DNA of 6,065 bases from Escherichia phage NC28, in sequence record NC_007823.1. One strand, given 5' to 3'. Under the pieces are notes generated by a model, which saw nothing but the letters and a program-made list of their open reading frames with translations, did no database searches and was not told the origin of the DNA. Positions within the stretch are counted from its first letter, which is position 1, and each line of letters begins with the position of its first letter. This document shows, one piece after another, positions 65 to 6,065 of the stretch. The position numbers were made by a program, and so were the translations under genes.

Positions 65-433
65 ATGAAGCCCGCTCACCGCTTGACTCATCCGATTCTC
101 GGTTCTTGGTTGTTTAAGTGCCCTGTTTATATCAGTTATGAGCACCTTCATCATGGTCGTCTCATTAAGGTTCGCGCTGTTCGTGATTTATCCCCTCGCC
201 AGCAGCTTATCGCTAACCCTAAAAATTGTTTTGACGTTGTTATTGCTGTGATTGACGTTACTTATTGCTCTGTCACTTATTTTGATTATGAGGCTGAGGA
301 ATATGCCGAGTGTGATTCAGAAACTATGGATAATATCCTTGCTTATGTTAACTCTCCTCACTCCCTTCGCTCTGAGGAGGATTCATCCGTTGATGTTGAC
401 GATATGGCGTGGCTTTATGAAATTGCGGAGTAA
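65..433 (+). CDS. Hypothetical acidic protein (122 aa) in the H-A intergenic region; no recognisable family.
   Basis: ATG at 65 with AGGAG (52-56) 8 nt upstream. T-rich third codon positions match the phage's other genes. C-terminal half is strongly acidic (EEDSSVDVDDMAWLYEIAE tail). Stop TAA at 431-433 lies 3 nt before the next ATG. Confidence 0.5.
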   Translation: MKPAHRLTHPILGSWLFKCPVYISYEHLHHGRLIKVRAVRDLSPRQQLIANPKNCFDVVIAVIDVTYCSVTYFDYEAEEYAECDSETMDNILAYVNSPHSLRSEEDSSVDVDDMAWLYEIAE

Positions 434-526: not shown

Positions 527-699
527 AATACTTTAGTCTTGTGGATGAACATTATGCTTATTGCCCTGACACGCGGATTCTGCATATCACTCGCAGTCGT
601 GTTTCTGACCCTCGTTATGAGCGTCGTTTTCTTACTGATGAGGAGCATTTTGAGCTTCTGGATTGGTTGAAAAGCCGTCTGACTTACGTTAATTCTTGA
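523..699 (+). CDS. Hypothetical 58-aa protein with GTG start overlapping the ORF2 stop (GTGA), translation VKYFSLVDEHYAYCPDTRILHITRSRVSDPRYERRFLTDEEHFELLDWLKSRLTYVNS.
   Basis: GGAGG (513-517) lies 5 nt upstream of GTG 523. Open frame to TGA 697-699 verified codon by codon. No in-frame ATG, so the start is uncertain. Confidence 0.33.
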   Translation: MKYFSLVDEHYAYCPDTRILHITRSRVSDPRYERRFLTDEEHFELLDWLKSRLTYVNS

Positions 700-725
700 C
701 AATCTTCTGAAATACCCTCTATATT
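696..725 (+). promoter_or_regulatory. Candidate sigma70 promoter for gene A (PA-like): -35 TTGACA (696-701), -10 TATATT (720-725), 18-nt spacer.
   Basis: Perfect -35 hexamer and a 5/6 -10 read directly, positioned about 35 nt upstream of the A start codon, analogous to phiX174 PA in the H-A intergenic region. The ORF3 stop TGA sits inside the -35 hexamer. Confidence 0.45.
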
Positions 726-755
726 GCCCTCATAGGTTCACTACGAGGGCTTTTT
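726..755 (+). terminator. Terminator-like or leader hairpin: GCCCTC (726-731) / GAGGGC (745-750) stem, 13-nt loop, followed by TTTTT (751-755), immediately before the gene A ATG.
   Basis: Read directly. The 3' arm GAGGG (745-749) is also the likely SD of gene A, 9 nt before ATG 759. Could terminate transcripts coming from the upstream cassette and/or modulate A translation. Confidence 0.4.
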
Positions 756-758
756 CGC

Positions 759-2243
759 ATGGCTACCGAATTGTTTTCTGACGTTGTAAAGGCTACGTGG
801 TCGCATGTCACTGCTAAGCATCCTCATCTTCGTATGGCTGTTCAGGTTGATAACCGTAGCCGTCTTCTTTCTGATTTGGTTTACCAGTTGGAAAAACGCC
901 TTTCCGAAGAGACTCATTTGGATGATGAGACTTATGCCCTTTATGAATCTCAGACTGGCCTTTTGGAAGACCATATGGCACTGGTTCGAAAGTGTGCAGC
1001 CCAACTTGATAATAGTAACACTATAGACCACCGTACCCCGTTGGACCCTGAATGTGTTTTCCTTTTTGAAATGATTTGTCCAGGTGTTCGCTATGGTAAG
1101 GCGCTTAATTCGCTTTGGAGTAAGTATGTCGCTCAATGGCCTGAGAAGTTAATTCGTCAGGAGCTCGACATGGTTAAGCCTTTATCTTTCAAGGATGAGG
1201 TTGCCAAGTACATGGAGAAAATGCAGGAAAAAACACGTAAAAATCGCATGACTCAGAAAGTGATTAATGAGATGCGTATTGCTCACCAAAAAGGCTGGTT
1301 CTTCGTATTTGATACGTTGACACTTGCTGATGACCGTTTGCAGGCGTTTAATGAAAACCCCAATGCTCTTCGTGATTACTTCAGGACTGTTGGTCGAGCT
1401 GTTTTGCGCGCTGAAGGTCGTTCGGTTAAGGATTCCTACAACGACTGCTATCGCTATCTTTGTGTGCCGGAGTTTGGAGGCCAGCACGGCCGTCTTCATT
1501 GGCATGTCGTGCATATGGTGCGGACTCTTCCTTTGGGAAGTCACGACCCTAATTTCGGTCGCAAGGTACGTAATTATCGCCAAATTAACTCGTTCCGTGG
1601 TATGTGGCCTTATGGCTTCACGCAACCGATAGCTGTACGCTATCAACATGATGCTTATTCTCGTAAAGGTTGGTTGTGGCCTGTTGACAAAACAGGAAAA
1701 GCAATGCAGAGTAAGCCGTATCAGGCGGTCGCATGGTATGTGACCAAGTATGTAGCTAAGCAATCTGATCAGCGTCAGAAAGCTATTACCGAGAGACAAA
1801 AAAAATGCAAAAATCCTTTGATGGCAATTTGCTTGAAGAAAGAATTCAGGGTTCGCAGCAGCCGGAAGCTCGGAATGGAGTTACCTTCAATGGTTCACCT
1901 GAGCAACAAGGTCCTTCTGGAACTGAGCAGAATCAGCTTCGATTCCAGCCCGCTCTATCAGATAGTGAAAGAGAACGCCAAAAAGCAATTGAGCTTGAAC
2001 ATCGGCGTAGTGCCTTTGCACGTCATTATGGATGTGCGCCCGCAAGTGAGAAGTATGTTGAAAAATATCCGTCGTTTGATGAAAAAGACACCAGAATTCA
2101 ATTGGCAGAATTCTATCGCTTCAATGACGGTCACCTTAAAAAATGGGGATATTTCTAATGAAGCACGTCAATACATTGTTGATGCAGGAATTACGCCTTT
2201 TGATTTGCGAGCTAAAGCGACTCAAACTTTCGGCGGTAAGTGA
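759..2243 (+). CDS. A: Replication initiation protein A (rolling-circle HUH endonuclease), 494 aa.
   Basis: Long ORF with HUH motif GRLHWHVVH (His codons near 1497-1514) and double-tyrosine motif AWYVTKYVAKQSD (Tyr codons at 1737 and 1749). Central and C-terminal regions align with recalled phiX174 protein A (e.g. GWFxVFDTLTLADDRL, PNALRDYFR, DPNFGRxVRN, WPYG, GWLWPVD). Confidence 0.94.
   Translation: MATELFSDVVKATWSHVTAKHPHLRMAVQVDNRSRLLSDLVYQLEKRLSEETHLDDETYALYESQTGLLEDHMALVRKCAAQLDNSNTIDHRTPLDPECVFLFEMICPGVRYGKALNSLWSKYVAQWPEKLIRQELDMVKPLSFKDEVAKYMEKMQEKTRKNRMTQKVINEMRIAHQKGWFFVFDTLTLADDRLQAFNENPNALRDYFRTVGRAVLRAEGRSVKDSYNDCYRYLCVPEFGGQHGRLHWHVVHMVRTLPLGSHDPNFGRKVRNYRQINSFRGMWPYGFTQPIAVRYQHDAYSRKGWLWPVDKTGKAMQSKPYQAVAWYVTKYVAKQSDQRQKAITERQKKCKNPLMAICLKKEFRVRSSRKLGMELPSMVHLSNKVLLELSRISFDSSPLYQIVKENAKKQLSLNIGVVPLHVIMDVRPQVRSMLKNIRRLMKKTPEFNWQNSIASMTVTLKNGDISNEARQYIVDAGITPFDLRAKATQTFGGK
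1002..1031 (+). other. Viral (+) strand replication origin 30-mer inside gene A; predicted nick between G1008 and A1009.
   Basis: CAACTTGATAATAGTAACACTATAGACCAC matches the recalled phiX174 origin CAACTTGATATTAATAACACTATAGACCAC at 28 of 30 positions; both differences fall in the AT-rich spacer. In frame within A (translated ...QLDNSNTIDHR...). Confidence 0.8.
1212..2243 (+). CDS. A*: Protein A*: in-frame internal restart within gene A, about 343 aa.
   Basis: In-frame ATG at 1212 (MEKMQEKTRKNRMTQ...) preceded by AAGGA/GAGG (1191-1200). It sits at the position equivalent to the phiX174 A* start, about 25 residues before the conserved GWFxVFDTLTLADD. In-frame ATGs at 1221 and 1248 are alternatives. 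Confidence 0.45.
   Translation: MEKMQEKTRKNRMTQKVINEMRIAHQKGWFFVFDTLTLADDRLQAFNENPNALRDYFRTVGRAVLRAEGRSVKDSYNDCYRYLCVPEFGGQHGRLHWHVVHMVRTLPLGSHDPNFGRKVRNYRQINSFRGMWPYGFTQPIAVRYQHDAYSRKGWLWPVDKTGKAMQSKPYQAVAWYVTKYVAKQSDQRQKAITERQKKCKNPLMAICLKKEFRVRSSRKLGMELPSMVHLSNKVLLELSRISFDSSPLYQIVKENAKKQLSLNIGVVPLHVIMDVRPQVRSMLKNIRRLMKKTPEFNWQNSIASMTVTLKNGDISNEARQYIVDAGITPFDLRAKATQTFGGK
1805..2158 (+). CDS. B: Internal scaffolding protein B (117 aa), encoded in an alternative frame inside gene A.
   Basis: ORF in a different frame from A. C-terminus ...DTRIQLAEFYRFNDGHLKKWGYF matches recalled phiX174 B C-terminus (...WRIQPAEFYRFHDAEVNTFGYF). Acidic, Q-rich N-terminal region typical of B. Confidence 0.9.
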   Translation: MQKSFDGNLLEERIQGSQQPEARNGVTFNGSPEQQGPSGTEQNQLRFQPALSDSERERQKAIELEHRRSAFARHYGCAPASEKYVEKYPSFDEKDTRIQLAEFYRFNDGHLKKWGYF

Positions 2244-2978: not shown

Positions 2979-3053
2979 ATGAAAAAGGCTCGTCGCTCTC
3001 CTTCTCGTAAAAAAGGTGCTCGCCTCTGGTATGTAGGCGGTTCTCAGTTTTAA
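2979..3053 (+). CDS. J: Small basic DNA-binding/packaging protein J (24 aa: MKKARRSPSRKKGARLWYVGGSQF).
   Basis: ATG 2979 two nt after the D stop; GGAG (2966-2969) 9 nt upstream. Basic composition and the C-terminal GARLWYVGG motif match recalled phiX174 J (…GARLWYVGGQQF). Short length fits G4/alpha3-type J. Confidence 0.85.
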   Translation: MKKARRSPSRKKGARLWYVGGSQF

Positions 3054-3057
3054 TTAT

Positions 3058-3071
3058 GGGCCTTCGGGCCC
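3058..3071 (+). terminator. J-F intergenic GC hairpin GGGCC-TTCG-GGCCC followed by TTT; terminator-like (TJ) or mRNA-stabilising stem-loop.
   Basis: Perfect 5-bp GC stem with TTCG tetraloop read directly, followed by TTTAAGGA, whose AAGGA (3075-3079) is the SD for F at 3086. Confidence 0.55.
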
Positions 3072-3085
3072 TTTAAGGAAATCCA

Positions 3086-4369
3086 ATGTCAAACGTGCAA
3101 ACTTCCGCAGAACGTATTCCGCATGACCTTTCCCATCTGGTTTTTGATGCTGGCAAGATTGGTCGTTTAAAGGTTGTTTCTTGGACTCCTGTTGTTGCAG
3201 GTGATTCTTTTGAGCTTGATATGATTGGCGCAATTCGCCTTTCTCCGCTTCGTCGTGGTTTGGCTGTTGATAGCCGCGTTGACTTGTTTACTTTCTATGT
3301 TCCTCATCGTCATGTTTATGGTGAGCAATGGATTGATTTTATGAAAGCAGGTGTTGATGCTGCTCCGCTTGCACCTGTTACTTGTTCGCGTGGTTGGGAT
3401 AGCGCCCAGTATTTGGCTACAATTCCGTCCTCTAACCTGAAGGTTCCTAAGTTCCTTCATCAAGGTTATTTGAATATTTATAATAACTATTTTAAAGCTC
3501 CGTGGATGGATGATTTAACTTATGCCAATCCGTCTAATATGGAAGGTGAAGACGTTCGTTTTGGTGTTCGTGCGTGTAACTTGAAAACTATTTGGACTGC
3601 CCCACTTCCGCCGGACACTGAGACTTCTCATTCTATGGAGACTGAGACTAACTCTATTGATATCATGGGCCTTCAGGCCGCTTATGCTCAGCTTCATACT
3701 GAGCAGGAACGTGATTATTTCATGACGCGTTATCGTGATATTGTTAATGAATTTGGTGGTAGTACTTCTTATGATGCGGATAATCGCCCTCTTCTGGTTA
3801 TGCACTCTGAGTTTTGGGCTTCAGGCTATGACGTCGACGGCACCGACCAAAGTTCTCTCGGTCAGTTCTCTGGACGTGTACAGCAGACCTTTAAGCATTC
3901 AGTACCGCGATTCTTCTGCCCTGAGCATGGCACTATGTTCACACTCGCATTGGTCCGCTTCCCGCCGACCCATGAGATGGAGATGCATTACTTAGTTGGC
4001 AAGGAAGATTTAACCTATACTGATTTGGCTTGTGACCCAGCTCTGATGGCCAACCTCCCTCCTCGTGAGGTTAATATGTCTCAGTTCTTCCATTCTGGAA
4101 GTGCTAGTGCTAAGTTTAAGATTGCTGAAGGTCAATGGTATCGTATGCAGCCTGACCGTGTTGCTTTGCCGTATAACTATCTTGATGGTTTTCCGTTCTA
4201 TAGTGCGATTCCATCTGATGATATTAATCATCGTGTTCTGGTTAATACTGATAACTACGATGAGGTTTTCCAGTCTATGCAGCTTGCGCACTGGAATATG
4301 CAGACCAAGTTTAACTGCACCATTTATCGTAATATGCCGACCACTCGCGACTCTATTATGACCTCTTGA
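3086..4369 (+). CDS. F: Major capsid protein F (427 aa).
   Basis: Same length as phiX174 F and extensive identity to the recalled sequence (MSNxQTxAERxPHDLSHL…, FTFYVPHRHVYGEQWI, GYLNIYNNYFKAPWM, WTAPLPP, SIDIMGLQAAYA, SYDADNRPLLVM, ASGYDVDGTDQxSLGQFSGRVQQT, LPTTRDSIMTS). Confidence 0.97.
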   Translation: MSNVQTSAERIPHDLSHLVFDAGKIGRLKVVSWTPVVAGDSFELDMIGAIRLSPLRRGLAVDSRVDLFTFYVPHRHVYGEQWIDFMKAGVDAAPLAPVTCSRGWDSAQYLATIPSSNLKVPKFLHQGYLNIYNNYFKAPWMDDLTYANPSNMEGEDVRFGVRACNLKTIWTAPLPPDTETSHSMETETNSIDIMGLQAAYAQLHTEQERDYFMTRYRDIVNEFGGSTSYDADNRPLLVMHSEFWASGYDVDGTDQSSLGQFSGRVQQTFKHSVPRFFCPEHGTMFTLALVRFPPTHEMEMHYLVGKEDLTYTDLACDPALMANLPPREVNMSQFFHSGSASAKFKIAEGQWYRMQPDRVALPYNYLDGFPFYSAIPSDDINHRVLVNTDNYDEVFQSMQLAHWNMQTKFNCTIYRNMPTTRDSIMTS

Positions 4370-4375
4370 TTATGT

Positions 4376-4389
4376 GGGCCTTCGGGCCC
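4376..4389 (+). terminator. F-G intergenic GC hairpin GGGCC-TTCG-GGCCC, second copy of the J-F hairpin; terminator-like (TF).
   Basis: Identical stem-loop to 3058-3071, with similar flanks (TTATG upstream, C(C)TTTAAGGA downstream); the downstream AAGGA serves as the SD for G. Confidence 0.55.
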
Positions 4390-4406
4390 CTTTAAGGATG
4401 TTGATT

Positions 4407-4952
4407 ATGTTTCAAGTTTATGTATCTAAGCATGTTGCCCCGTTCACTTCTAAGAACCGTGCTTTTTCTATTGCTCCCGCTGCTAATCCGCAGGTTGTTA
4501 ACTCTGGTGAGATTGTTGCAGGTCGTTCTACGTTTCGTATTGCTTCTTCTATTGCTTCCGCTGTTAATGGTAGTGGTTTCGCTTTTGTTCAGATGATGGA
4601 CCCTAACTCTCCTGATTCTCAGCAGGTTTTCTCTGTTGCTGCTTCTCTGTCCTTTAGTGTTGATTCGAATTACATTCCTTGTGTTGTTCGTTTTGAGGAT
4701 AACGCTGCTCAGCCTACTGATTTTGATATTGCGACCGCTGATTTTATTCCGGTTGAGGTTTCTGCTATTTCTCCTCGTGCGCTTAGTGTTCGCGATTGTG
4801 TTACCGTTGATGTTAAGCCTCGCACTCAAGGCAATAATGTTTTTGTTGGTGTTGTTTTCTTTTCTGCTTCTGCTAATGCCGGTAATGTCACTGGTGTCGT
4901 TTCGATGGCTCAGGTTGACCATGAAGTTACAGCTTTGCAGCCGCTTAAATAA
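4407..4952 (+). CDS. G: Major spike protein G (181 aa).
   Basis: ATG 4407 (MFQVYVSKH...) with AAGGA (4394-4398) 8 nt upstream. Start MFQ and motifs CVVRFE, DCVTVDV-PRT-GNNV-VG and C-terminal LQPLK match recalled phiX174 G. The track's 4374 start is a GTG inside the hairpin; the in-frame ATG at 4398 is too close to the SD. Confidence 0.9.
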   Translation: MFQVYVSKHVAPFTSKNRAFSIAPAANPQVVNSGEIVAGRSTFRIASSIASAVNGSGFAFVQMMDPNSPDSQQVFSVAASLSFSVDSNYIPCVVRFEDNAAQPTDFDIATADFIPVEVSAISPRALSVRDCVTVDVKPRTQGNNVFVGVVFFSASANAGNVTGVVSMAQVDHEVTALQPLK

Positions 4953-5087
4953 AAGGCCACCGCACTCCTGGTTAGATGCCTGCCCAGTGTAGGGTGGACC
5001 GAGCCGTACGGAGATACCCGAGAAACTAGGAACGCGGAAGGCGTTAGCCGCCTTCCCTCCTGCTAAGCCCAAAGGAGACTTTCAGCT
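4953..5087 (+). promoter_or_regulatory. 135-nt structured G-H intergenic region; candidate terminator after G and/or complementary (-) strand origin (primase-dependent ssi). Strong hairpin at 5036-5056 (GGAAGGCG-TTAGC-CGCCTTCC); possible imperfect hairpin 4957-4997; palindrome CCGTACGG at 5004-5011.
   Basis: Hairpins read directly. The spacer is far longer than a terminator plus RBS needs, while the F-G spacer is only 37 nt. My recollection is that in G4 the (-) strand origin is in F-G and in alpha3/St-1/phiK it is in G-H. AAGGAG (5072-5077) is the SD for H. Confidence 0.35.
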
Positions 5088-6065
5088 ATGTTAGGTGCCG
5101 TTGTAGGTGGTATTGTTTCAGCCTTAGCTGGTGGAGCAGCTTCTAAGCTATTTGGTGGCAAGCCTGCCGCTCAAGCCGCCACTGAGTCCTCTGGCCTTTC
5201 TAATGGTCAAGGTGTTATTGGTATGGACCAAGATGCTGGTATTCAGTCAGCTATTCAGGGTTCGAATGTTCCAAATGGTCAGATTCCTGCCCCTACCCAG
5301 ACTGGTGGCGTTATGTCTGACGCTAAAAATATGATTAAGAATGCTGGTAAAGATTTGCTTGATGGTGTTATGACCGCTGGAAGTGACCGCATTAAGCAGG
5401 CATTGGTTGATAAATTGAGTGGTAATAATGCAAAACGACAAGGACAAGCAACCCGTGATTACTTGGCTTCGGCCTTCCCTGAGCTCAACCCGTGGGAACG
5501 TTCTGGAGCTGGTGCTTCCGGTGCCGGATTGGAATCTTCCGGTCAGGACCAACAAAAAGAGTTGATGCGTATGCAGCTGGATAACCAGAAAGATATTGCA
5601 AAGATGCAGATGGATAACAATTTGCAGATTGCTGGTATTCAGTCCGCTACATCTCGTCAGAATACTAAGGACACTGTTTATGCTCAGAATGAAATGCTTC
5701 AGTACAATCAGCGTGAGTCGCAGGCACGCGTTGAATCTATCCTCGCCAACACTAACCTTACGGATAAGCAGGCTACCCATGAAATCATGAGAATGGCTCT
5801 TACCCGTGCTCAGGAAACTGGTCAGCATTTGACTAACTCTCAGATTATGGCATTGGAGAAAAAGGTTTATGCAGAAATCGGAAAAATTAATCAAGATACT
5901 CAAAACGCTCGCTATGGTAGTTCTCAGGTTACTGCTGCGGCGAAAGATGTTACGAATATGATTACTGATGCCACCTCTGGTGCTGCTGATTGGGTTTCCC
6001 AGCAATGGAATTCCCTCTTTAAGGATGGTAAGTCTAATGGTATTCCCCTCAATACCAGAAAATAA
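5088..6065 (+). CDS. H: Minor spike / DNA pilot protein H (325 aa).
   Basis: AAGGAG (5072-5077) 10 nt before ATG 5088. Glycine-rich N-terminus (MLGAVVGGIVSALAGGAASKLFGG), then GIQSAIQGSNVPN, TRDYLAxAFPELNxWER, QKELxxMQLDNQK, IAGIQSATSRQNTKDxVYAQNEML, ENTNL, QNxRYGSS; C-terminal ...FKDGKSNGI...RK. All match recalled phiX174 H. Stop TAA is the last 3 nt of the window. Confidence 0.95.
   Translation: MLGAVVGGIVSALAGGAASKLFGGKPAAQAATESSGLSNGQGVIGMDQDAGIQSAIQGSNVPNGQIPAPTQTGGVMSDAKNMIKNAGKDLLDGVMTAGSDRIKQALVDKLSGNNAKRQGQATRDYLASAFPELNPWERSGAGASGAGLESSGQDQQKELMRMQLDNQKDIAKMQMDNNLQIAGIQSATSRQNTKDTVYAQNEMLQYNQRESQARVESILANTNLTDKQATHEIMRMALTRAQETGQHLTNSQIMALEKKVYAEIGKINQDTQNARYGSSQVTAAAKDVTNMITDATSGAADWVSQQWNSLFKDGKSNGIPLNTRK

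What the first reader, a model, noticed from the sequence alone, without database searches (positions are those of the whole stretch)
3054..3079. Duplicated 26-29-nt hairpin-plus-RBS module after J, repeated after F
TTATGGGCCTTCGGGCCCTTTAAGGA (3054-3079) and TTATGTGGGCCTTCGGGCCCCTTTAAGGA (4370-4398) are near-identical. Each has a GGGCC/GGCCC stem with a TTCG tetraloop, a short T-run and then AAGGA serving as the SD of the next gene (F and G). This looks like a reused terminator/stabiliser-RBS cassette; TTCG-type tetraloops are unusually stable, so it may act as a 3' end protective structure for the J and F mRNAs.
Basis: seen in the sequence. Interest (0 to 1): 0.45.

Follow-up and report, generated by a model that had tools for sequence, protein, structure and literature searches.

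The report
Duplicated leaky terminator hairpin in microvirus
The two near-identical GC hairpins after genes J and F of this alpha3-like phage genome are real and conserved, and they match the well-studied weak terminator and mRNA-stabilising hairpin T_J of phage phiX174, so this is an ordinary, already understood kind of signal.

Summary
The window is a complete alpha3-like microvirus genome (Bullavirinae, Alphatrevirus; 91.7% identical to WA13). GGGCCTTCGGGCCC occurs exactly at 3058-3071 and 4376-4389. Each copy lies between a stop codon (J, F) and the AAGGA Shine-Dalgarno of the next gene (F, G). All 15 relatives where both spacers could be read carry both modules, and two cut contigs show the F-G copy.

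The stem varies by compensatory changes: five core pairs are 100% paired in 19 distinct sequences, and three of them show double changes. The loop varies only as UUCG, UCCG or UACG (UNCG), apart from G4's CGCG, which points to selection on the RNA.

The J-F copy matches phiX174 T_J (GGGGCTTCGGCCCC) in position and sequence. T_J is a rho-independent terminator that blocks about 20-40% of transcription, and disrupting it speeds mRNA decay. The F-G copy is specific to Alphatrevirus. In phiX174 and G4 that spacer is long and unrelated, and the G4 F-G sequence has its homologue in this window's G-H spacer.

The most likely function is a leaky attenuator plus 3' stabiliser that steps down F and G transcript levels. 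No scanned promoter-like site lies in either spacer, so read-through is probably needed.

Not supported: concerted evolution of the two copies, improved Shine-Dalgarno exposure, and a third functional copy inside F. This is a new member of a known kind, of low interest.

The parts
3054..3085 (+). J-F spacer (32 nt). It holds the hairpin, a short T-run, the F Shine-Dalgarno AAGGA (3075-3079) and a 6-nt spacer before the F ATG at 3086.
   Evidence: Gene positions come from the WA13 and alpha3 annotation.
3058..3071 (+). T_J-type hairpin: GGGCC / UUCG / GGCCC, -10.8 kcal/mol as RNA. It starts 4 nt after the J stop codon.
   Evidence: It is the homologue of phiX174 GGGGCTTCGGCCCC.
4370..4406 (+). 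F-G spacer (37 nt). It holds the second hairpin, CTTT, the G Shine-Dalgarno AAGGA (4394-4398) and an 8-nt spacer before the G ATG at 4407.
4376..4389 (+). T_F-position hairpin, identical 14-mer GGGCCUUCGGGCCC, -10.4 kcal/mol. An optional sixth pair G4374-C4390 forms with a bulged U. It starts 6 nt after the F stop codon.
2979..3053 (+). Gene J (DNA-binding core protein). Transcripts ending at the first hairpin would carry D, E and J.
3086..4369 (+). Gene F (major capsid protein), flanked by the two hairpin modules.
4407..4952 (+). Gene G (major spike protein), translated from the SD of the second module.

Best explanation
Each module is a weak (leaky) rho-independent terminator that also acts as a 3'-end stabiliser, fused to the ribosome-binding site of the next gene.

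Proposed mechanism (inferred from the phiX174 model, not measured here): transcripts from the promoters upstream of A, B and D run through D-E-J-F-G-H. As RNA polymerase passes the J or F stop codon, the cUUCGg hairpin forms in the nascent RNA. With only three U residues behind it, only a minority of polymerases should release. F and then G mRNA levels would therefore step down relative to D/J mRNA. The released RNAs, and RNAs trimmed back from downstream, would end in a very stable hairpin that slows 3'-to-5' exonucleases. Polymerases that read through would produce mRNA in which AAGGA, 3-4 nt past the stem, serves as the SD for F or G.

The J-F module is the orthologue of phiX174 T_J. The F-G module is most simply a copy of it, occupying the T_F position in the alpha3 lineage.

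Shown here: presence, non-randomness, conservation, base-pair covariation, UNCG-restricted loop variation, homology to T_J, and no promoter-like site in either spacer.

Inferred: termination, its efficiency, stabilisation, and the duplication origin.
For: 1. Exact 14-mer repeat at homologous positions after two stop codons, with 0 of 200 shuffles matching.
2. Both modules are present in all 15 Alphatrevirus relatives where both spacers could be read; two further cut contigs show the F-G copy.
3. Covariation: the 5 core pairs are 100% paired in 19 distinct sequences and 3 of them show changes on both sides (GC/CG/AU). The covariation score is 0.333 against 0.096 in shuffles (0 of 500 reach it). 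Slid registers collapse to 0.045-0.119.
4. Natural loop variants are UUCG, UCCG (L035) and UACG (L022). Only the replaceable second position of the UNCG motif varies, and UNCG stability depends on a ribose 2'-OH.
5. The phiX174 J-F spacer carries GGGGCTTCGGCCCC at the same place, with the same loop, a similar energy (-11.8 vs -10.8) and an equally poor U-tail.
6. phiX174 T_J, T_F and T_G are rho-independent terminators that block 20-40% of transcription. At 37 C, 68% of transcripts read through T_J, and disrupting T_J accelerates mRNA decay.
7. The best promoter-like sites precede A (696-725) and D (2445-2473), and none lies in the J-F or F-G spacer. The one site between them (3394-3423, 9/12) is inside F and is a weak hit in a scan at chance level (8 found, 8.8 expected). 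F and G therefore probably depend on read-through.
8. The two hairpins are among the six most stable local structures of the + strand.
Against: No transcript data exist for this phage or, in the literature I could reach, for any alpha3-like phage.

The U-tail is only 3 U. The generic terminator scan does not call the sites, so termination could be very weak or absent and the hairpin could act only as a stabiliser.

In phiX174, folding energy did not correlate with measured terminator strength, so strength cannot be predicted here.

A 5-bp stem is short for blocking PNPase (my own recollection of in vitro work, not checked).

NC29 carries a 4-bp J-F variant (-7.1 kcal/mol), which shows some tolerance of weakening.
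Confidence: 0.8

Rival explanations
1. Pure mRNA 3'-end protector or processing barrier with no real termination. All polymerases read through. After endonucleolytic cuts downstream, exonucleases trim back to the cUUCGg hairpins, which yields stable D-J and D-J-F species.
For: The U-tail is only 3 U and fails the terminator scan. [quoted passage not shown] Disruption of phiX174 T_J accelerates decay of the shorter transcripts.
Against: The phiX174 homologue has an equally poor tail. It is still associated with a 20-40% drop in transcription and has been treated as a rho-independent terminator since 1981. The two roles do not exclude each other.
Confidence: 0.12
2. RBS-presentation or insulation element. 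The hairpin locks up upstream sequence so that the AAGGA of F or G stays single-stranded, or so that translation of the downstream gene is insulated from the upstream one.
For: The hairpin-to-SD distance is short and constant, 3-4 nt in all Alphatrevirus copies. The module is always fused to an SD.
Against: In silico, the probability that the SD is unpaired is not raised by the hairpin. With the hairpin it is 0.22-0.43; with the 5' arm mutated it is 0.26-0.61, across three context sizes. In phiX174 and G4-like phages the hairpin-to-SD distance is longer and variable at 7-11 nt.
Confidence: 0.05
3. DNA-level element of the single-stranded viral genome, for example a hairpin recognised in packaging or replication, or by protein A/A*. 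A variant is a pair of direct repeats kept alike by intragenomic gene conversion.
For: The hairpins also fold as ssDNA (-6.0 and -5.8 kcal/mol, z about -2). The phiX174 J-F tail is reported as an extra-origin A/A* cleavage site. Within the WA13 clade the two copies often share the same stem type (Fisher p = 0.03).
Against: Loop variation follows the RNA-specific UNCG rule.

The ACTTGA-type A-protein core of the phiX174 tail is absent from the window spacers.

The (-) strand origin homologue lies elsewhere, in the G-H spacer.

All four combinations of J-F and F-G stem types occur (6, 2, 3, 10). The weak association is what linkage and shared ancestry would give, so no conversion is needed.
Confidence: 0.03

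Closest known systems
phiX174 terminator T_J (J-F intercistronic hairpin; Hayashi et al. 1981, 1983, 1989; Logel & Jaschke 2020)
   Same: Same position, just after the J stop codon and before the F SD. Same cUUCGg loop, a 5-6 bp all-G/C stem, similar energy and a short U-poor tail. The stem-loop is identical in the WA13 clade and differs by one flipped base pair in the window.
   Different: In the window the stem is GGGCC/GGCCC rather than GGGGC/GCCCC. The SD follows after 3 nt rather than 9. The phiX174 tail motif ACTTGA, reported as an A/A* cleavage site, is absent. Function has not been measured in any alpha3-like phage that I could find.
phiX174 terminator T_F (F-G intergenic region)
   Same: Same gene order position, after F and before G. 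By the phiX174 model it has the same expected role in stepping down G and H transcripts.
   Different: No sequence relationship. The phiX174 F-G spacer is 110 nt with different hairpins and its hairpin score is weak. Here the spacer is 37 nt and carries a copy of the T_J-type module.
cUUCGg intercistronic hairpins of phage T4 mRNA (Tuerk et al. 1988, as recounted in PMC4371310)
   Same: A UUCG tetraloop closed by C-G, sitting between cistrons of a phage polycistronic mRNA. It is extraordinarily stable and folds on its own.
   Different: Unrelated phage and unrelated flanks. The resemblance is one of motif class only.
G4 J-F hairpin and G4 F-G (-) strand origin region
   Same: G4 and G4-like phages also have a GC hairpin followed by TTTAAGGA before F. 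Most G4-like genomes carry GGGGCTTCGGCCCC.
   Different: G4 itself has GGGAC/CGCG/GTCCC, which is not a UNCG loop. The G4 F-G spacer is 136 nt and is homologous to this window's G-H spacer, not to its F-G spacer.

Membership tests
Bullavirinae T_J-type terminator/stabiliser hairpin | Located in the J-F spacer, between the J stop codon and the F Shine-Dalgarno | tested here: met
   Hairpin 3058-3071 lies 4 nt after TAA (3051-3053) and 3 nt before AAGGA (3075-3079). The placement is the same in phiX174, G4-like and all alpha3-like genomes.
Bullavirinae T_J-type terminator/stabiliser hairpin | Sequence homology of the stem-loop to phiX174 T_J (GGGGCTTCGGCCCC) | tested here: met
   The window has GGGCCTTCGGGCCC, which is 12 of 14 identical; the two differences form one compensatory G-C to C-G flip. 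WA13-clade genomes carry the phiX174 14-mer exactly.
Bullavirinae T_J-type terminator/stabiliser hairpin | Base pairing maintained in evolution (compensatory changes) | tested here: met
   Five core pairs are 100% paired in 19 distinct sequences, and 3 of them change on both sides. The covariation score is reached by 0 of 500 shuffles, and slid registers collapse.
Bullavirinae T_J-type terminator/stabiliser hairpin | Causes partial transcription termination and stabilises upstream mRNA in vivo | not testable with these tools
   Known only for phiX174. No transcript data are available for this genome.
Canonical intrinsic (rho-independent) terminator | GC-rich stem-loop formed in nascent RNA | tested here: met
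   -10.8 and -10.4 kcal/mol, with all-G/C 5-bp stems.
Canonical intrinsic (rho-independent) terminator | U-rich tract (typically at least 5 U in 8 nt) directly after the stem | tested here: not met
   The tails are UUUAAGGA and CUUUAAGG, with 3 U in 8. Neither is called by the consensus scan. phiX174 T_J also has 3 U in 8 and is a measured weak terminator, so this argues for low efficiency rather than against the mechanism.
cUNCGg tetraloop hairpin | Loop U-N-C-G closed by a C-G pair, with variation confined to N | tested here: met
   The closing pair C-G is invariant in 19 of 19 sequences. Loops are UUCG in nearly all, UCCG in L035 and UACG in L022. The only exception is G4 with CGCG. The rule is taken from PMC4371310.
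Any Rfam RNA family | Match to a curated covariance model | tested here: not met
   No hit at E <= 1 anywhere in the window.

The most novel reading that the evidence does not exclude
In the alpha3 lineage the F-G spacer lost (or never had) the long structured region seen in phiX174 and G4 and received a copy of the J-F terminator/RBS cassette. The two copies are then kept alike by occasional intragenomic conversion or by selection for matched termination strength. That would make a modular, copy-and-paste attenuator unit setting capsid-protein stoichiometry.
Probability: 0.15. Interest if true: 0.35.

Novelty: new member of a known kind. Interest (0 to 1): 0.2.

Why it matters
The result has three uses, all modest.

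It gives the probable transcription attenuators of an alpha3-like microvirus. Public records annotate only coding sequences for these phages.

It shows that the alpha3 lineage uses the same T_J-type module twice, where phiX174 and G4 have an unrelated, long F-G region.

The natural stem swaps (GGGCC, GGGGC, GGCCC, GAGCCC) and loop variants (UUCG, UCCG, UACG) form a ready-made compensatory series. They could be used to test how hairpin stability sets the D:F:G expression ratios, which is useful for refactoring or designing microvirus genomes.

It does not open a new question.

Tried and rejected
1. Third copy inside F (3667-3680, GGGCCTTCAGGCCG, found). The peptide IMGLQAAY is invariant, but its synonymous sites vary freely among relatives (GGT TTG CAG..., GGT CTT CAG...), which destroys the hairpin in most genomes. 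The local fold is no better than shuffles (z = 0.02). It is a coding coincidence.

2. Concerted evolution or gene conversion of the two copies. The window has GGGCC in both copies and WA13 has GGGGC in both. With 13 more contigs, however, all four combinations appear (6, 2, 3, 10; Fisher p = 0.03, not corrected for phylogeny or linkage). Conversion is not needed.

3. Recent import of the J-F spacer from the alpha3 clade. The window's J-F spacer looks alpha3-like while its flanks are WA13-like. The same spacer type is common among WA13-clade metagenomic genomes, so it is a standing haplotype.

4. Hairpin as an SD-exposing device. In-silico accessibility gives no support.

5. Rfam search at E <= 1: no hits.

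6. IMG/VR scan with protein F returned only the already known reference genomes. The metagenome scan with G gave two loci, one of them useful (L027).

7. Exact look-up of the window's G protein: not on record.

8. Primary papers (Hayashi 1983, PMC255335; Rokyta 2006) are not held. Kodaira 1992 could not be found. I therefore could not check whether the alpha3 hairpins were explicitly described there.

9. PHROGs search of the three H-A spacer ORFs: no family.

Full report
**What the window is.** The 6065-nt window is a complete alpha3-like microvirus genome (Microviridae, Bullavirinae, Alphatrevirus).
- It aligns end to end with coliphage WA13 at 91.7% identity, with eight other WA13-clade genomes at 89-92%, and with alpha3, phiK and St-1 at 83-85%.
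- By transfer from their annotation and the ORF list, the genes are A 759-2243, D 2519-2977, J 2979-3053, F 3086-4369, G 4407-4952 and H 5088-6065.
- The finding therefore concerns the J-F spacer (3054-3085) and the F-G spacer (4370-4406).

**Checking the observation.**
- The 14-mer GGGCCTTCGGGCCC occurs exactly at 3058-3071 and 4376-4389, both on the + strand.
- At up to two mismatches there are three hits against 0.01 expected, and none of 200 dinucleotide-preserving shuffles reaches three.
- The similarity extends into the flanks (TTATG before, TTTAAGGA after). The second copy has three extra bases.
- As RNA, each folds into a 5-bp all-G/C stem with a UUCG loop, at -10.8 and -10.4 kcal/mol.
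- In a scan of all 24-nt windows of the + strand (mean -2.1, sd 2.1 kcal/mol), the two hairpins are among the six best non-overlapping structures. The others include the G-H spacer hairpin and the hairpin just before gene A.
- AAGGA lies 3-4 nt after each stem, and 6 or 8 nt before the F or G start codon.

**Comparison with relatives.** I extracted both spacers from 13 GenBank genomes. I added one metagenome contig (L027) and 13 Logan/ENA/NCBI contigs found through the G protein.
- Every alpha3-like genome has a hairpin module in both spacers wherever the spacer is on the contig.
- The stems differ between lineages: GGGCC/GGCCC (window, phiK, L027 and many contigs), GGGGC/GCCCC (WA13 clade), GGCCC/GGGCC with an added G-U pair (alpha3 J-F), GAGCCC/GGGCUC (St-1 J-F), and GGCC/GGCC (Lilleven J-F).
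- On an alignment of 19 distinct modules, the five core pairs are standard pairs in every sequence, and three of them show changes on both sides.
- The covariation score is 0.333 against 0.096 in column shuffles (0 of 500 reach it). Sliding the 3' arm by one to three columns drops it to 0.007-0.119. The structure is therefore under selection.
- The loop is UUCG almost everywhere, with UCCG in L035 and UACG in L022. Only the second position varies, which is the replaceable position of the UNCG motif.
- The C-G closing pair is invariant. UNCG stability depends on ribose 2'-OH contacts (PMC4371310), so this pattern points to selection on the RNA rather than on the single-stranded viral DNA. G4 itself is the one exception, with a 7-bp stem and a CGCG loop.

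**Identity of the J-F copy.** phiX174 has GGGGCTTCGGCCCC at the same place, between the J stop and the F Shine-Dalgarno. Most G4-like genomes have it too.
- This is the position of phiX174 terminator T_J.
- The literature I could read describes T_J, T_F, T_G and T_H as rho-independent terminators in the J-F, F-G, G-H and H-A spacers, all with efficiencies below 100%.
- RNA-seq shows T_J, T_F and T_G each blocking only 20-40% of transcription (Logel & Jaschke).
- qPCR shows 68% read-through of T_J at 37 C. Transcripts ending at T_J are the most stable, and disrupting the T_J structure accelerates their decay (PMC3335065, citing Hayashi et al. 1983).
- The phiX174 hairpin has a similar energy (-11.8 kcal/mol) and an equally poor tail, 3 U in 8 nt, as the window's two copies.

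**The F-G copy.** It is specific to the alpha3 lineage.
- In phiX174 the F-G spacer is 110 nt and in G4 it is 136 nt. Neither contains this module.
- The G4 F-G spacer aligns over its whole length with the window's G-H spacer. From my own knowledge, that G4 region is the primase-dependent origin of complementary-strand synthesis.
- In alpha3-like phages that region sits after G, and the F-G spacer holds nothing but a T_J-like module.
- The two modules share their flanks as well as their hairpin, so a duplication of the J-F module is the simplest origin. This is an inference.

**Mechanism.** The most likely role of both modules is the one established for T_J: a leaky intrinsic terminator that also protects the 3' end of the RNA, fused to the next gene's ribosome-binding site.
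- The promoter scan finds its best sites before A (696-725, 11 of 12) and before D (2445-2473). It finds none in the J-F or F-G spacer.
- One weak site (3394-3423, 9 of 12) lies inside F. The scan as a whole is at chance level (8 found, 8.8 expected), so it carries little weight either way.
- F and G therefore probably depend on read-through, which fits a 3-U tail that fails a generic terminator scan.
- The stop codons lie only 4 and 6 nt before the stems. From general knowledge of the ribosome footprint, a ribosome terminating on J or F would hold the 5' arm in its mRNA channel. The hairpin could then form only when RNA polymerase has run ahead, which would further limit termination. This step is inferred and untested.
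- If termination occurs, 3' ends are expected about 7-9 nt past the stems, inside the SD.

**Rivals.**
- A pure stabiliser without termination cannot be excluded, but it is a variant of the same known role.
- A role in exposing the SD is not supported. The computed probability that AAGGA is unpaired is no higher with the hairpin than with its 5' arm mutated, in contexts of 80, 160 and 300 nt.
- A DNA-level role is unlikely. The loop follows the UNCG rule, the A-protein-like ACTTGA motif of the phiX174 tail is absent here, and the (-) origin homologue lies elsewhere.

**Concerted evolution.** I examined whether the two copies evolve in concert, because the window has GGGCC in both and WA13 has GGGGC in both.
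- With the extra contigs, all four combinations of J-F and F-G stem type occur (6, 2, 3 and 10 genomes).
- The association is weak (Fisher p = 0.03). It is expected from linkage and shared ancestry in a 6-kb genome that is visibly mosaic.

**The look-alike inside F.** The sequence at 3667-3680 encodes the invariant peptide IMGLQAAY. Its synonymous sites vary freely among relatives, and its fold is no better than shuffles. It is a coincidence of codon choice.

**Verdict.** The element belongs to a kind that has been known in phiX174 since the early 1980s.
- None of the Alphatrevirus records inspected annotates the hairpins, and Rfam has no family for them.
- I could not read Kodaira et al. 1992, so I cannot say whether the alpha3 copies were already described.
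- The only modestly new point is that the alpha3 lineage uses the same module at both the T_J and T_F positions. Interest is low.

Noticed in passing
window 4953-5087 (G-H spacer): This spacer aligns over its whole length with the F-G spacer of G4 and the G-H spacer of alpha3. It contains the most stable local hairpin of the genome (about 5036-5056, -14.2 kcal/mol). From my own knowledge, the G4 region is the primase-dependent complementary-strand origin, so the origin cassette sits in a different spacer in the two lineages.
   Followed up: partly
window 696-757: The best sigma-70-like site in the genome (TTGACA-18-TATATT, 11 of 12) is followed directly by a hairpin at 726-750 (-14.7 kcal/mol) and then UUUUU, just before the A start at 759. 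This matches the overlapping pA/T_H arrangement described for phiX174.
   Followed up: partly
window 3667-3680 (inside F): GGGCCTTCAGGCCG resembles the spacer hairpins (2 mismatches). It encodes the invariant peptide IMGLQAAY, and relatives vary at the synonymous sites, so it is a coding coincidence and not a conserved structure.
   Followed up: yes
window 65-433, 437-526, 523-699 (H-A spacer): Three ORFs of 122, 29 and 58 aa are called at the same positions in every alpha3-like contig fetched. They have no Pfam entry on record and no PHROGs match, and their function is unknown.
   Followed up: partly
window 759-1100 versus the rest: The genome is mosaic. In gene A the window groups with phiK (up to 96% identity at 901-1100), whereas D-J, F, G and H group with the WA13/ID62 clade.
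   Followed up: partly
window 1002-1031 (inside gene A): CAACTTGATAATAGTAACACTATAGACCAC is 28 of 30 identical to phiX174 4299-4328, which spans the annotated origin of viral-strand synthesis (4306).
   Followed up: partly
window 4398-4400: An ATG in frame with G overlaps the last base of the SD AAGGA. Relatives have ATA or ATT there, so G most likely starts at 4407 as annotated in WA13.
   Followed up: partly
L010 (NC29) J-F spacer; L035 J-F spacer: NC29 has lost one G of the 5' arm, leaving a 4-bp stem at -7.1 kcal/mol. L035 carries a UCCG loop. Both are natural weakened or variant forms of the hairpin.
   Followed up: no
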